From NCBI RefSeq assembly GCF_056712565.1, contig NZ_CM160072.1: a stretch of 64,000 bases of DNA. The stretch is one strand, 5' to 3'. The position numbers are program-made. This document shows, in pieces, positions 33,101 through 39,100 of the stretch. Positions within the stretch are counted from its first letter, which is position 1. Each line of letters starts with the position of its first letter.

Positions 33101-36100
33101 CCCAGTTTCAGACGCTCCGTAACGTTATTATTAAAGTTAAGCGAGACAGACCTTTTGAAATTAACGCTTGGGTAGTTTTGCCGGAGCATATGCATTGCAT
33201 ATGGACATTACCTGAAGGCGATGATGATTTTTCCTCGCGCTGGCGGGAAATTAAAAAGCAATTTACCCATGCTTGTGGATTGAAAAATATCTGGCAACCA
33301 CGTTTTTGGGAACATGCTATCCGCAATACCAAAGACTATCGCCATCATGTTGATTATATTTATATAAATCCAGTAAAACATGGTTGGGTAAAACAAGTGA
33401 GTGATTGGCCATTCTCAACGTTTCACCGCGATGTTGCGAAAGGGTTATATCCCATCGATTGGGCGGGAGACGTAACGGATTTTAGTGCTGGGGAGCGTAT
33501 CATTTTATAGCTGTGCGCCGATGCCTGATGCGACGCAGACGCGTCTTATCATGCCTACAAAACCGCGCTCACCCGTAGGCCGGATAAGGCGTTCACGCCG
33601 CATCCGGCGGTTGTGCACCGGTGCCTGATGCGACGCAGATGCGTCTTATCATGCCGACAAAACCGCACTCACCCGTAGGCCGGATAAGGCGTTCACGCCG
33701 CATCCGGCGGTTGTGCACCGGTGCCAGATGCGCCGCTACGCGTCTTATCATGCCGACAAAACCGCACTCACCCGTAGGCCGGATAAGGCGTTCACGCCGC
33801 ATCCGGCAATATGCACCGATGCCGGATGCCTACATCAACGCCCCCATTATCTTCAACTCCAGCTCATCCAGCACTTCGTTATACGACAGCACATGCAGCC
33901 CTGGTGCAAACAACCTTGCGTAGCGCGCCAGCAAAGGGCGCAGCTGCGGCGGCACCAGCAGCACCGGATCTTTCCCCGCCGCTTTCATCTGCTCCTTCAC
34001 CTGCGGCATCGTGATCTGAAACTGGTTGAGCATATTCGGGTCCACCGGCACGCTATCGAGCATCACTTTGCCGGCCTGTTGCGCCTGATTCACCACGTTG
34101 GTCAGCAGATTTTCCAGCTCATTATTCAGCGTATACACCGTCAGCTCCTGCTTGCGAACGAACGGATGGGTAATGCTGCGCCGCAGCACCAGGCGCACAT
34201 CGGCCGTCAGCAGAATATGATCTTTAGTCACCGCACTACTGGCGACCAACACGGTGGCGATGGTGACGATATCGCGCAGGGAAACGCTTTCAGTCAGTAG
34301 TGTGCGGTACACTTTCAGCAACTGGCTGTAATTGAGCGCCGCGCTCAAATCTTCCGCCAGTCGCGGTGCCATCGACGACAAACGGTTATGCAGCTGAGTA
34401 ATATCGTCATAGTTAAACAAATCAGGAATATAGCTGCGCACAATCTTATTCACATGGGTGGCAATTACGCTGGCGCTGTCGATCACCTGATACCCCATAT
34501 TCAGCGCCTTCGCTTTCTGCGCGGGCTGAATCCAGGTGACCGGCATCCCGTACGCCGGGTCGTTCCCCAGCACGCCGTCTATCTCGCCGTAGGTTTCGCT
34601 GGAGGGCAGGGCCATCAGTTTATCCGCCGGAATATCCGCTTCATCAGCCTTAATGCCGTTGATGAAAATAGCGTACTGGCTGGGCTTGAGGCGGAAGTTT
34701 TCCCGAATACGGATCTCCGGCAGCAGCACGCCGTTGCCGTCGGAAATCACCTGACGTACGCCGCGAATACGCTGGGTGAGCGGGTTGCCCTGCGCTTTAT
34801 CCACCAGCGCCACCAGTTTGTAGCCGAGGCTTAAACTGATAGGTTCGATCAGCGGAATAGTTTCCCAACTGACCTGTTGCTCGCTGGTTTCTGTCATCGT
34901 ACGGGTTAGCGTTTCGAGGCTTTTCTCTTCCGCCTCCGCCGCTTGCGGGCGCTTGCTCATCCGCCAGCCGGTAAAACCAAGCAGGGCGCTGAACATCAGG
35001 AACGGGAAATGCGGCATTCCCGGCACCACCGCCAGCACGAACATAATTCCAGTGGCGGTGTAGAGAACCGACGGGCTTGCCAGCAACTGATTACGCACGT
35101 CATGGGCGATATCACCGTTATCGCTGACGCGGGTGACGATAATCGCCGCCGCGGTGGAGAGCAGCAGGGAAGGGATTTGCGCCACCAGCCCATCGCCGAT
35201 AGTCATCAGCACATATTGCTGGAAGGCGGCGTCGGCGCTCAGGTTGTATTTGAAGATCCCGATACAGACGCCGCCGATCAGGTTGATCGCCAGAATCATC
35301 ATCCCGGCGATGGCATCCCCGCGCACAAATTTTGATGCCCCGTCCATTGCGCCGTAGAAATCGGCCTCGCTGGCAACATCTTTACGCCGGGTTTGCGCCT
35401 GCGTCTGGTTGATCAACCCGGCGTTAAGATCGGCGTCAATCGCCATCTGTTTGCCGGGCATCGCGTCCAGGGTAAAGCGGGCAGAAACCTCGGAAATACG
35501 CTCGGCCCCCTTGGTGACGACGATAAAGTTGATTGTCAACAGCGTCAGTAAATCCGAGCGTGAAAGCATTATCGCCGCGCTGCACGGGCAGTCGATTTTT
35601 AACGGTGGTGGGTTGTCGCCGTTAAATAAAATCAGCCCGTCTCATCTGCCAAAACCTGCCACCGTGGCGGTGCCGGAAGAGACGGAGAAAAAAGCGCGCG
35701 ACGTCAACGAGAAAACGGCGCTGTTGAAGAAGAAATCCGCCACCGAGCTTGGCGAGCTGGCGACCAGTATCAATACCATCGCCCGTGATGCGCATATGGA
35801 AGCGAATCTGGAGATGGAGATTGTTCCCCAGGGATTACGCGTGCTGATTAAAGACGACCAGAACCGCAATATGTTTGAACGCGGCAGCGCGAAGATTATG
35901 CCGTTCTTTAAAACTTTGCTGGTGGAGCTTGCGCCAGTGTTAGACTCGCTCGATAACAAAATTATTATTACCGGGCATACCGATGCGATGGCCTACAAAA
36001 ACAATATCTACAACAACTGGAACCTTTCGGGCGATCGCGCGCTTTCGGCTCGTCGGGTGCTGGAAGAGGCCGGAATGCCGGAAAATAAAGTGATGCAGGT

Positions 36101-39100
36101 AAGCGCAATGGCGGACCAGATGCTGCTGGATGCCAAAAATCCGCAAAGCGCGGGCAACCGGCGCATTGAGATTATGGTGCTGACCAAAAGTGCGTCCGAT
36201 ACGCTGTATCAATACTTTGGTCAGCATGGGGATAAAGTGGTGCAGCCGCTGGTGCAAAAGCTGGATAAGCAGCAGGTGCTTTCGCAGCGAGCGCGTTAAA
36301 TGCTGAATCTTTACGCATTTCTCAAACCCTGAAATCACTGTATACTTTACCAGTGTTGAGAGGTGAGCAATGCGTAAAATCATTCATGTGGATATGGACT
36401 GCTTTTTCGCAGCGGTGGAGATGCGCGACAATCCCGCCCTGCGCGATATCCCTATTGCTATTGGCGGCAGCCGCGAACGACGGGGGGTAATCAGCACCGC
36501 CAATTATCCCGCGCGTAAATTTGGCGTACGTAGCGCTATGCCGACAGGGATGGCGCTCAAATTATGCCCGCATCTCACCTTGCTTCCAGGGCGCTTTGAC
36601 GCCTACAAAGAAGCCTCAAATCATATCCGCGAAATTTTCTCGCGCTATACCTCGCGCATTGAACCGTTATCACTGGATGAAGCCTATCTCGATGTCACCG
36701 ATAGCGTCCATTGCCACGGTTCTGCGACCCTCATCGCCCAGGAAATCCGCCAGACGATCTTCAACGAGCTGCAACTGACGGCGTCTGCGGGCGTTGCGCC
36801 GGTCAAGTTTCTCGCCAAAATCGCCTCCGACATGAATAAACCCAACGGTCAGTTTGTGATTACTCCGGCTGAGGTTCCGGCATTTCTGCAAACCTTACCG
36901 CTGGCAAAAATTCCCGGCGTCGGCAAAGTCTCAGCGGCTAAACTGGAAGCGATGGGGCTACGAACCTGCGGTGATGTGCAAAAGTGTGATCTGGTGACTC
37001 TGCTCAAACGTTTTGGCAAATTTGGCCGCATTTTGTGGGAGCGTAGTCAGGGCATTGACGAGCGCGACGTTAACAGCGAAAGGTTGCGAAAATCCGTCGG
37101 TGTAGAACGTACGATGGCGGAAGATATTCATCACTGGTCTGAATGTGAAGCGATCATCGAGCGGCTTTACCCTGAACTGGAGCGTCGTTTGGCAAAGGTA
37201 AAACCTGATTTGCTGATTGCCCGCCAGGGGGTGAAATTAAAGTTCGACGATTTTCAGCAAACCACCCAGGAACACGTCTGGCCGCGGCTGAATAAATCTG
37301 ATCTAATCGCCACCGCGCGTAAAACCTGGGATGAACGCCGCGGCGGGCGCGGTGTGCGACTGGTGGGGCTGCATGTGACGTTGCTTGACCCGCAAATGGA
37401 AAGACAACTGGTGCTGGGATTATGATGTATACTATTTTGTATATTCTGGTGTGCATTATTATGAGGAGATCACTGTATGCATCGAATTCTCGCTGAAAAA
37501 TCGGTCAATATCACTGAGTTACGTAAAAACCCAGCTAAATACTTTATTGATCAACCTGTTGCGGTTCTTTCTAATAATCGCCCCGCAGGATATCTCTTAA
37601 GTGCCAGCGCATTTGAAGCATTAATGGACATGCTTGCAGAACAAGAGGAGAAAAAGCCCATAAAGGCGCGCTTCCGTCCGAGTGCTGCAAGATTAGAGGA
37701 AATTACACGCCGCGCTGAACAATATCTTAATGATATGACGGATGATGATTTCAATGACTTTAAGGAATAAGGATGCGGGTATTCAAAACAAAACTTATTC
37801 GCCTGCAACTTACAGCAGAGGAACTTGAAGCGTTAACGGCGGATTTTATTTCCTATAAGCGTGACGGTGTTTTGCCAGATATATTTGGTCGTGATGCACT
37901 CTACGACGACTCGTTTACCTGGCCATTAATCAAATTTGAGCGAGTTGCTCATATTCATCTGGCAAATGTGAATAATCCATTTCCGCCACAGTTGCGCCAA
38001 TTCAGCAGAACGAATGACGCAGCGCATTTGGTATATTGTCAGGGCGCGTTTGATGAGCAAGCATGGTTGCTCATTGCCATTCTGAAACCTGAACCTCATA
38101 AACTGGCTCGAGATAACAACCAAATGCATAAAATTGGGAAAATGGCAGAAGCGTTTCGCATGCGTTTTTGAATTTATATTATGAATAACATACAAATAAG
38201 AAACTATCAGCCTGGTGATTTTCAGCAACTATGCGCTATTTTCCTTCGAGCTGTTACGATGACGGCGAGTCAGCACTATTCTCCACAGCAAATTGCCGCC
38301 TGGGCGCAGATTGACGAATCTCGCTGGAAGGAGAAACTCGCGAAATCACAAGTGCGGGTTGCAGTTATTAATGCACAACCGGTTGGTTTTATTACCTGCA
38401 TTGGACATTATATCGATATGTTATTTGTTGAACCGGAATACACCCGACGCGGGGTTGCCAGCGCTTTGTTAAAACCATTGATTAAGTCTGAATCCGAACT
38501 TACGGTGGACGCCAGCATAACCGCAAAACCCTTTTTTGAACGTTATGGTTTTCAGACAGTTAAGCAGCAGCGCGTTGAATGCCGGGGAACGTGGTTTACT
38601 AATTTTTATATGCGATATAAACCGCAACATTAAATCCAGCTTGCAATGAAAATAACGCCCGTCTAGTATGTGCGCGTTTTCTTATTCCACAAACTGCAAG
38701 GAGGTAAATCATGACAAATCCTTTATCAATGACTCTTTGCAGACCTTTCCAGGATTAATTCTTTTTTCTTGCCCTGGATTCGTCTGCCATTTCCTGATTT
38801 TTATTCATAAATGGAATGGTACATGGGCAAATATATTCGTCCCTTATCCGATGCGGTATTTACCATCGCATCTGATGACCTGTGGATCGAAAGTTCAGCG
38901 ATCCAACAATTACACACCACGGCAAATTTACCCAACATGCAGCGCGTTGTGGGGATGCCAGATTTACATCCCGGACGCGGCTACCCGATTGGCGCAGCGT
39001 TCTTCTCTGTTGGTCGTTTTTACCCGGCACTGGTCGGCAATGATATCGGCTGCGGCATGGCGCTATGGCAAACAGATATTCTCGCTCGCAAATACAACGC

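What the first reader, a model, noticed from the sequence alone, without database searches (positions are those of the whole stretch)
33830..36299. Flag-2 lateral flagellar locus deletion scar (lfhA' / lafU' remnants)
An FlhA-like gene lacking its N-terminal membrane domain abuts, head to head, a MotB-like gene lacking its N-terminus; junction around 35545-35570. This matches the known deletion that removed the Flag-2 cluster in many E. coli.
Basis: partly seen in the sequence, partly recalled or inferred. Interest (0 to 1): 0.3.

Follow-up and report, generated by a model that had tools for sequence, protein, structure and literature searches.

The report
Flag-2 lateral flagella deletion scar
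This is the well-known scar left in most E. coli when a 37-kb second flagellar gene cluster was lost; the same cut, to the nucleotide, also turns up in distant enterobacterial genera, which a single accidental deletion does not easily explain.

Summary
Confirmed and already known. Window 33830-36299 holds the two end fragments of the Flag-2 lateral-flagella cluster, lfhA' (K-12 fhiA) and lafU' (K-12 mbhA), between rayT and dinB.

Alignment to an intact locus (E. coli DS566-1) shows 37,133 bp missing. The junction is the 3-bp microhomology GAT at 35531-35533.

LfhA' lacks only residues 1-130, not the whole membrane domain. LafU' lacks residues 1-52, including the membrane helix and its conserved Asp.

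The same junction is contiguous in 4085 of 5426 complete E. coli genomes. About 1330 keep the intact ends, and about 11 have some other arrangement.

One thing was unexpected. The same codon-level junction occurs in E. albertii, Citrobacter, Kluyvera, Atlantibacter, a Cedecea-like lineage and two unnamed groups. In most of these the remnant reading frames are still open, and their differences are almost all synonymous (dN/dS 0.02-0.09). Scars lie close to intact alleles from the same or a related taxon. Two E. coli lineages give clean intact/scar pairs with no donor tract.

This does not fit one old deletion followed by neutral decay. Recurrent site-precise deletion and a very old allele kept fresh by recombination both remain possible.

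The parts
33830..35533 (-). lfhA' remnant: codons Ile131-Met697 plus the stop codon of the Flag-2 FlhA paralogue (K-12 name fhiA)
   Evidence: Pfam FHIPEP E=5.5e-188, profile positions 99-655 of 657. 96.3% identical to L001 43325-45356, the intact lfhA of DS566-1. 567 codons with no internal stop.
35531..35533 (.). Deletion junction: the 3-bp microhomology GAT. It is the complement of the lfhA Ile131 codon ATC, and also the last base of the lafU Trp52 codon plus the first two bases of Ile53.
   Evidence: Three-way alignment of the window against both ends of the intact locus. The junction string AAAGTTGAT|TGTCAAC is identical in all eight E. coli scars sampled.
35534..35569 (-). A 12-codon extension of the mechanical lfhA' ORF (MLSRSDLLTLLT) with an ATG. 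It is lafU' sequence read antisense, not lfhA sequence.
   Evidence: ORF list. The junction alignment shows these bases match lafU in the intact locus.
35532..36299 (+). lafU' remnant: codons Ile53-Arg307 plus the stop codon of the Flag-2 MotB paralogue (K-12 name mbhA). It lacks the membrane helix, Asp39 and the plug region.
   Evidence: OmpA domain E=4.5e-15. One nucleotide difference in 765 from the intact DS566-1 lafU. The intact N-terminus is ...AFADFTLAMMALFMTLW|IVNSV.
35514..35531 (+). The upstream stretch that RefSeq's 786-nt 'lafU' CDS adds through a GTG start. It is antisense lfhA' sequence, not lafU sequence.
   Evidence: The K-12 lafU CDS at L002 7684-8469 maps to window 35514-36299.

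Best explanation
The region is the canonical Flag-2 deletion scar of E. coli. A cluster of about 37 kb encoding a second, lateral-type flagellar system once lay between lfhA, transcribed leftwards as the last gene of its operon, and lafU, transcribed rightwards as the last gene of its operon. A deletion joined codon 131 of lfhA to codon 53 of lafU at a 3-bp microhomology.

What remains are two 5'-truncated, divergently oriented fragments, each now preceded only by the antisense of the other.

Shown here: the anatomy, the endpoints, the size of the deletion, and how common the junction is.

Inferred:
- The fragments do nothing useful. LfhA' lacks the first half of the membrane domain that builds the export gate.
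- LafU' lacks the membrane helix with the proton-accepting Asp, and it has no signal to bring its peptidoglycan-binding domain to the periplasm.
- No convincing promoter is created at the junction.

How the allele arose and why it is shared across genera is not settled; see the rival explanations.
For: - Pfam domains and truncation points.
- Collinearity with the intact loci and a 37,133-bp gap.
- Eight scars of identical 2470-bp length with an identical junction.
- Junction contiguous in 4085 of 5426 genomes. About 1330 genomes keep the deleted-side sequences, and none carries the reciprocal junction.
- RefSeq annotation of the K-12 counterpart as an N-terminally missing FlhA pseudogene.
- Literature: PMC3032704, PMC6993521 and PMC11420993.
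- Signs of decay in some scars: lfhA' is frameshifted in the E. albertii type strain; lafU' has a nonsense codon in strain Z1323CEC0019; many E. coli lfhA' variants carry internal deletions or truncations, for example a 501-aa form with 794 member sequences.
- There is no conserved start codon for LfhA' across lineages.
- Promoter-like sites are not more frequent than in shuffles, 4 against 2.2 +/- 1.3.
- mbhA is used as an integration site in an engineered W3110 strain (PMC12152760).
Against: - Both remnant frames are open in all eight E. coli scars sampled, and in Citrobacter, Kluyvera, Atlantibacter and other lineages.
- Their differences are overwhelmingly synonymous. Scar-to-scar dN/dS is 0.02-0.06 within E. 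coli and 0.02-0.09 between genera, the same as between intact alleles. That is not what a long-dead pseudogene looks like.
- A Keio delta-mbhA mutant scored as strongly less ciprofloxacin-tolerant in one screen (PMC13131330). The dinB SOS promoter lies about 40-70 bp downstream, so a polar effect is likely.
- Expression was not tested.
Confidence: 0.96

Rival explanations
1. Origin, option A. The canonical junction is made again and again. A site-precise deletion, whether a mutational hotspot or an enzyme-driven excision, repeatedly converts intact Flag-2 loci into the same scar in each lineage. Scars are therefore young copies of local intact alleles.
For: - The same codon-level junction (LfhA Ile131 joined to the Ile after the conserved LafU Trp) occurs in E. 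albertii, Citrobacter sp. MGH106 and Kluyvera ascorbata. It also occurs in Atlantibacter, a Cedecea-like lineage, an H16N7-like group and a metagenomic group.
- These lineages are too divergent to exchange the junction by homologous recombination. Synonymous sites are saturated, and LafU' in the Cedecea-like lineage differs from the first codon after the junction.
- Wobble-position identity next to the junction is no higher than elsewhere.
- Scars lie close to intact alleles from the same or a related taxon: Atlantibacter 99.06% and the H16N7 group 99.65% at nucleotide level; the Cedecea-like scar 98-99% at protein level to Cedecea neteri LfhA.
- An in-silico canonical deletion of the intact loci of E. 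coli 042 and 2014C-3051 matches natural scars at 99.9% over 2470 bp. No mismatch occurs for 1942 nt and 3011 nt on the lfhA side, and no donor tract is visible.
- Low dN/dS among scars fits a recent origin from selected intact genes.
Against: - No mechanism is visible. The microhomology is only 2-3 bp across 37 kb.
- No nucleotide motif is conserved beyond what the coding sequence requires.
- No recombinase domain was found in the nine non-flagellar ORFs scanned in and beside the intact E. coli locus.
- No genome carries the reciprocal junction.
- The other deletions at this locus are IS-mediated and use different ends.
- Two of four intact haplotypes tested lack a clean scar counterpart, with best matches of 99.2% and 97.6%.
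Confidence: 0.4
2. Origin, option B. The deletion happened once, long ago. The scar and the intact locus have coexisted ever since as alternative alleles, across species splits. Recombination with intact alleles of the same species keeps overwriting the scar's flanks right up to the heterology boundary. This keeps the frames open and erases any trace of common descent.
For: - One event explains an identical junction without needing a special mechanism.
- Remnants are reported mainly in taxa that also hold complete loci (PMC6993521).
- Scar and intact alleles are intermixed in E. coli, and polymorphisms are shared up to 9 bp from the junction.
- The window itself switches relatedness exactly at the junction: its lafU' differs by 1 nt from intact DS566-1, while its lfhA' is 3.3% different.
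- Similar frequencies of roughly 25% intact loci are reported in E. coli and in E. albertii.
Against: - Both alleles would have to survive every speciation event across lineages whose synonymous sites are saturated, and across two deeply diverged Flag-2 types (LfhA ~70% amino-acid identity). This would hold for at least seven lineages.
- The clean intact/scar pairs in two E. coli backgrounds would need either very short mismatch-free exchange tracts (about 60 bp per side) or two separate flank conversions each.
Confidence: 0.35
3. The remnants are not dead. LfhA' (second half of the membrane domain plus the cytoplasmic ring domain) and/or LafU' are kept by selection as a domesticated two-gene module. 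That would also supply the balancing selection that option B needs.
For: - The frames are open and constraint is as strong as in intact genes, within E. coli and between genera.
- An ATG lies 12 codons upstream of the lfhA-derived part of lfhA' in E. coli and in Atlantibacter.
- delta-mbhA gave a phenotype in one Keio screen.
Against: - LafU' has no membrane anchor or signal sequence for a periplasmic domain.
- Start codons are not conserved across lineages.
- Frameshifts, nonsense codons and many internal deletions occur in natural scars.
- There is no promoter signal.
- The two remnants show the same constraint as their intact parents rather than a changed pattern.
- The gene is used as an integration site in an engineered W3110 strain.
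- The Keio phenotype may be polar on dinB.
Confidence: 0.07

Closest known systems
fhiA-mbhA (lfhA'-lafU') scar of E. coli K-12, described by Ren et al. 2005 (J Bacteriol 187:1430; cited in PMC3032704 and PMC6993521; the paper itself is not held in the library)
   Same: Same two fragments, same 2470-bp length, same junction string, same neighbours on the near sides (rayT and dinB).
   Different: The scar sequence is 94.9% identical to K-12, against 97.5-97.9% in the outer flanks. This strain lacks dinJ-yafQ and keeps intact rtcB-prfH. The stop codon of lfhA' is TAG here and TAA in K-12.
Intact Flag-2 locus of E. coli 042 (NC_017626.1) and of strains DS566-1, MFDS1022581 and 2014C-3051
   Same: Same chromosomal site. 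The 3' parts of lfhA and lafU are collinear with the window.
   Different: About 37 kb is absent here: lfhB, lfiRQPNM, lafK, lfiEFGHIJ, the lfg genes, lafA to lafT, cargo genes, and the 5' 390 nt of lfhA and 158 nt of lafU.
lfhA/lafU remnants reported in 531 of 4028 Enterobacterales genomes (De Maayer et al. 2020, PMC6993521)
   Same: Same kind of remnant pair. My loci from Citrobacter, Kluyvera, Atlantibacter and a Cedecea-like strain are examples.
   Different: In the passages I read, that paper reports the remnants' presence and cites direct repeats for E. coli. I saw no statement that the junction is identical at codon level across genera, nor any analysis of constraint on the remnants. 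I did not read the whole paper.
IS-mediated deletions of the same locus (E. coli A23 with IS1; OkiPb01676 with IS421)
   Same: They also remove Flag-2.
   Different: They have different endpoints and an IS element sits at the junction. About 11 of 5426 genomes fall outside the two main states.

Membership tests
Canonical Flag-2 deletion scar (lfhA'-lafU') | FHIPEP-family gene truncated at its 5' end | tested here: met
   FHIPEP profile positions 99-655 of 657. Codons 1-130 are absent when compared with the intact 697-aa LfhA.
Canonical Flag-2 deletion scar (lfhA'-lafU') | MotB-like lafU truncated at its 5' end and abutting lfhA' head to head | tested here: met
   The OmpA domain is kept and codons 1-52 are absent. 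The 5' ends meet at 35531-35533.
Canonical Flag-2 deletion scar (lfhA'-lafU') | Collinear with both ends of an intact Flag-2 locus, with the interior missing | tested here: met
   37,133 bp (L001 6201-43333) is absent.
Canonical Flag-2 deletion scar (lfhA'-lafU') | Same junction as K-12 | tested here: met
   AAAGTTGAT|TGTCAAC in the window, K-12, O157:H7 and five others. A 122-bp junction probe is contiguous in 4085 genomes.
Canonical Flag-2 deletion scar (lfhA'-lafU') | Chromosomal position between yafL/rayT and dinB | tested here: met
   rayT 33013-33510 and dinB 36370-37425.
Canonical Flag-2 deletion scar (lfhA'-lafU') | Fragments are silent (described from memory as 'promoterless' by Ren et al. 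2005) | tested here: inconclusive
   The consensus scan finds no excess of promoter-like sites. Expression cannot be measured with these tools.
Functional FlhA-type export gate protein | Complete N-terminal membrane domain (eight helices in Salmonella FlhA, from established knowledge) | tested here: not met
   Residues 1-130 are missing and the break lies inside hydrophobic segment 118-136.
Functional MotB-type stator subunit | N-terminal membrane helix with the conserved Asp, plus the plug region | tested here: not met
   The helix at 35-53 and Asp39 are deleted. Intact LafU homologues carry the Pfam MotB_plug domain, and the truncated forms do not.
Functional MotB-type stator subunit | C-terminal OmpA-like peptidoglycan-binding domain | tested here: met
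   PF00691 E=4.5e-15.

The most novel reading that the evidence does not exclude
The lfhA-lafU junction is not the relic of one accident. It is the product of a recurrent, nucleotide-precise deletion that switches the lateral flagellar system off irreversibly, in many enterobacterial genera and in at least two deeply diverged Flag-2 types, by a mechanism not yet recognised. The evidence does not exclude this. It favours it over neutral decay of a single old scar, but does not separate it from a very old allele kept fresh by recombination.
Probability: 0.4. Interest if true: 0.7.

Novelty: already known. Interest (0 to 1): 0.35.

Why it matters
For this window the finding is routine annotation. 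It explains two odd 'genes' next to dinB, and it corrects RefSeq's habit of calling lafU' an intact protein.

The wider pattern is more interesting. A loss allele with one exact junction is present in 75% of E. coli and recurs in genera that cannot exchange it by homologous recombination.

If the deletion is recurrent, it points to an unrecognised precise deletion process. Such a process would give a ready-made off switch for a costly and immunogenic organelle.

If the allele is ancient, it would be an unusually long-lived presence/absence polymorphism. It would also be a clear case of recombination keeping a 'pseudogene' intact.

Both readings can be tested with existing strains and public genomes.

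Tried and rejected
1. One old deletion followed by neutral decay. Rejected: the frames are open in most of the lineages examined, and dN/dS is 0.02-0.09 even where synonymous sites are saturated.

2. Recent transfer of the scar between genera. Rejected: wobble identity next to the junction (9-10 of 20) is no higher than further away, and differences begin 4-12 bp from the junction.

3. A recombinase encoded within Flag-2. Pfam finds none in the nine non-flagellar ORFs scanned in and beside the DS566-1 locus.

4. RayT/REP involvement. rayT and a REP array lie next to lfhA' in E. coli, but they are absent from the Citrobacter, Atlantibacter and Cedecea-like contexts, and the breakpoints are not in REPs.

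5. Reuse of either breakpoint by other rearrangements. The lafU-only hit in strain A23 is an IS1 deletion that keeps a full lafU. OkiPb01676 has an IS421 deletion.

6. A reciprocal (circle or tandem) junction. It is absent from all 5426 genomes.

7. A promoter created at the junction. There is no signal above the shuffles.

8. Asking whether Kluyvera holds only scars of the E. coli type. The third protein search could not resolve this, because clusters are formed at 90% identity.

9. Ren et al. 2005 could not be read. What I say about it comes from papers that cite it or from memory, and is marked as such.

10. An imperfect 12-of-18 direct repeat and an 11-of-15 inverted similarity of the two breakpoint regions (both encode Leu-x-Ile-Ile/Val-Asn) were noted by eye. 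They look too weak to explain a hotspot, and they are weaker still in Cedecea.
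Full report
**What is in the window**

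ORF listing and direct reading of 33600-36500 show a 579-codon ORF on the minus strand at 33830..35569. A plus-strand frame ends at 36299.

The first ORF matches Pfam FHIPEP with E=5.5e-188, but only from profile position 99 onward. The second carries an OmpA-type domain with E=4.5e-15.

The neighbours are yafJ, dpaA, yafL and rayT on the left. On the right are dinB, yafN, yafO, yafP, rtcB and prfH. The window is therefore E. coli chromosome. The full scar is 100% identical to strain Z0117EC0054. The junction region is 100% identical to ATCC 11775 and ATCC 25922.

**Endpoints of the deletion**

I fetched an intact Flag-2 locus from strain DS566-1 (L001). I also fetched MFDS1022581, 2014C-3051 and 042.

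- Window 33509-35542 aligns to L001 45356-43325 at 96.3%.
- Window 35528-40500 aligns to L001 6206-1234 at 99.84%.

The two alignments overlap only because of a short chance similarity.

Base by base, the window follows lfhA through T35530 and follows lafU from T35534. The GAT at 35531-35533 is common to both. In DS566-1 the missing stretch is L001 6201-43333, which is 37,133 bp.

What each gene retains:
- lfhA keeps its last 1704 nt, Ile131 to the stop codon, out of 697 codons.
- lafU keeps its last 766 nt, Ile53 to the stop codon, out of 307 codons.

Bases 35534-35569 are lafU read antisense. They happen to give the lfhA' frame 12 extra codons and an ATG.

RefSeq's 786-nt 'lafU' CDS does the mirror-image thing. 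It borrows a GTG at 35514 from antisense lfhA'.

**What the fragments could still do**

A hydropathy scan of intact LfhA gives hydrophobic segments at 21-39, 118-136, 205-223, 245-263 and 282-311. The break lies inside the second of these.

It keeps the conserved loop (VVTKGAERISEV...PGKQMAIDADLNAG), the later helices and the whole cytoplasmic domain.

LafU' has lost its only membrane helix, which contains Asp39 (AFADFTLAMMALFMTLW). It keeps the linker and the OmpA-like domain. From what is established about FlhA and MotB, neither fragment can do its original job.

A consensus scan finds no excess of promoter-like sites, 4 against 2.2 +/- 1.3 in shuffles.

**How common the scar is**

- The 2470-bp scar is contiguous in 4071 of 5426 complete E. 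coli genomes.
- A 122-bp probe centred on the junction is contiguous in 4085 genomes.
- A probe built from the two deleted-side sequences matches 1330 genomes, usually at two places, and never as one piece.

So about 75.3% of genomes carry the canonical scar and about 24.5% keep intact ends. About 11 genomes have something else. Two of those were inspected and are IS1- and IS421-mediated deletions with different ends.

**Agreement with the literature**

- K-12 fhiA and mbhA are described as the lfhA and lafU pseudogene remnants of Flag-2 (PMC3032704, citing Ren et al. 2005).
- De Maayer et al. 2020 report such remnants in 531 of 4028 Enterobacterales genomes, mainly in taxa that also hold complete loci. 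[quoted passage not shown]
- E. albertii strains without Flag-2 have a 2.5-kb truncated locus more than 90% identical to that of E. coli, and about 25% of E. albertii genomes carry Flag-2.

**What does not fit a simple dead scar**

First, eight scars that differ by up to 5% in sequence are all exactly 2470 bp, with no indel and no stop codon in either frame.
- For lfhA', scar-to-scar differences give dS of 0.04-0.28 (mostly 0.17-0.28).
- dN/dS for those pairs is mostly 0.02-0.06.
- Intact-to-intact pairs give the same range, 0.02-0.03.

Scar and intact alleles are intermixed. The window's lafU' differs by 1 nt from intact DS566-1, while its lfhA' differs by 56 nt. Polymorphisms are shared with intact alleles up to 9 bp from the junction.

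Second, a scan of one genome per species with a degenerate junction pattern found the same junction in three other taxa:
- The E. albertii type strain, where lfhA' is frameshifted.
- Kluyvera ascorbata ATCC 33433.
- Citrobacter sp. MGH106, which has the same synteny: yafJ-dpaA-yafL-scar-dinB.

Between these genera, synonymous sites are saturated (dS 1.1-2.4), yet dN is about 0.05 and the 567-codon frame is open. LafU' gives dN/dS of 0.06-0.09. Wobble positions next to the junction are no more alike than elsewhere, so the scar was not passed recently between genera.

Third, truncated LfhA ORFs that begin at the same residue turned up in four more groups, and their DNA confirms the same structure. 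The groups are Atlantibacter subterranea, an 'Enterobacter sp. Ap-916' that is really Cedecea-like, a group near Enterobacteriaceae bacterium H16N7, and an unnamed metagenomic group.

In each case the complement of the Ile131 codon (GAT or AAT) shares its AT with the first LafU codon kept.

Intact Cedecea davisae LafU reads ...LFMVLW|IMGAVTEEE. The scar therefore starts at the homologous position, in a protein that already differs from E. coli's in the first residues after the junction. The intact Cedecea locus also sits among the same neighbours as the Cedecea-like scar.

Scars lie close to intact alleles from the same or a related taxon:
- Atlantibacter: 99.06% at nucleotide level.
- H16N7 group: 99.65% at nucleotide level.
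- Cedecea-like: 98-99% at protein level.

**Clean intact/scar pairs in E. coli**

I deleted the interior of four intact loci in silico at the canonical junction and searched for natural scars that match.

| Intact strain | Best natural scar |
|---|---|
| 042 | 99.9% (C4, HYM1, ECA64) |
| 2014C-3051 | 99.9% (Z1323CEC0019); 99.8% in the next hits |
| DS566-1 | 99.2% |
| MFDS1022581 | 97.6% |

C4 and 042 show no mismatch for 1942 nt on the lfhA side and two mismatches in lafU'. Divergence rises only beyond -4.6 kb and +0.95 kb.

Z1323CEC0019 and 2014C-3051 have one mismatch in 3455 nt on the left and two in lafU'. One of those is a nonsense codon in the scar.

Neither pair shows a donor tract around the junction.

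**Reading of the evidence**

Neutral decay of one ancient scar is excluded. Three accounts remain.

*Recurrent, site-precise deletion.* This explains the cross-genus junction, the young look of the scars, the clean pairs, and the co-occurrence with intact loci.
- No mechanism is visible: the microhomology is only 2-3 bp.
- No nucleotide motif is conserved beyond coding needs.
- No recombinase domain was found in the locus.
- No reciprocal product was found.

*One very old allele that coexists with the intact locus.* Its flanks would be overwritten by intact alleles up to the heterology boundary. This needs no new mechanism. It does need both alleles to survive every speciation event across at least seven lineages and two Flag-2 types.

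*Selection on the remnants themselves.*
- In favour: the low dN/dS.
- Against: LafU' has no membrane anchor or export signal.
- Against: start codons are not conserved.
- Against: frameshifts, nonsense codons and internal deletions are frequent.
- Against: the constraint pattern is unchanged from the intact genes.

I put these at roughly 0.40, 0.35 and 0.07. These figures are judgement, not measurement.

**Verdict**

The finding is real, correctly interpreted and already known. Two details needed correction: the junction position and the extent of the LfhA truncation.

The identity of the junction across genera, and the constraint on the remnants, were not stated in the passages I could read. 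They deserve a direct test.

Noticed in passing
window 33512-33829 (and rayT at 33013-33510): A tandem array of 3.2 copies of a 100-bp unit made of REP-type palindromes (GCCGGATAAGGCGTTCACGCCGCATCCGGC) fills the gap between rayT and the stop codon of lfhA'. Similar REP copies lie at about 30100-30232 and 32830-32930. The mechanical ORFs through this stretch are artefacts of the repeats.
   Followed up: partly
window 31777-32078: The dinJ-yafQ toxin-antitoxin pair that K-12 carries between dpaA and yafL is absent here. About 830 bp of K-12 sequence is replaced by about 235 bp. Intact-locus strain DS566-1 shows the same arrangement.
   Followed up: partly
window 38811-40573: rtcB (383 aa) and prfH are intact here. 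K-12 lacks the equivalent of window 39030-40047 (1018 bp) and keeps only two pseudogene fragments. K-12 therefore carries a second small deletion scar, 2.5 kb downstream, that this strain does not have.
   Followed up: partly
window 36338-36353: CTGTATACTTTACCAG, a CTG-N10-CAG LexA-box-like site, lies 39 bp after the lafU' stop codon and 16 bp before the dinB start codon. Any manipulation of lafU' (mbhA) therefore sits right against the dinB SOS promoter. This may explain the ciprofloxacin-tolerance phenotype reported for delta-mbhA (PMC13131330).
   Followed up: no
window 33611-38804 and 32152-33719: The block from the scar through dinB-yafNOP is only 94.9% identical to K-12, and yafL-rayT is only 90.8% identical. 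The outer flanks are 97.5-97.9% identical. The whole neighbourhood, not just the scar, is a zone of high diversity.
   Followed up: partly
L015 (Kluyvera ascorbata ATCC 33433) and protein P0160: K. ascorbata carries an E. coli-type scar. Records named K. ascorbata also encode a full-length LafU of the Enterobacter/Cedecea type (309 aa, 83 contigs). This suggests two Flag-2 types in one species. I did not check whether both occur in the same genome.
   Followed up: no
L001 23934-24364 and 35427-37074; L010 39303-40357: 'Intact' Flag-2 loci are often already damaged. DS566-1 has frameshifts in flgC and fliF, and 042 has one in flgC. 2014C-3051 has a frameshifted dinB next to the locus.
   Followed up: no
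L009 23871-26587: Strain MFDS1022581 carries a DNA cytosine methyltransferase and a type II restriction endonuclease inserted between flgA and flgM, inside the Flag-2 cluster. This is an example of cargo genes in the locus.
   Followed up: no
window 35409-35569: The two mechanical ORFs overlap by 161 nt on opposite strands. Each remnant's frame happens to stay open through the antisense of the other. This is why gene callers give 579-aa 'FlhA' and 261- to 296-aa 'LafU' proteins with invented N-termini.
   Followed up: yes
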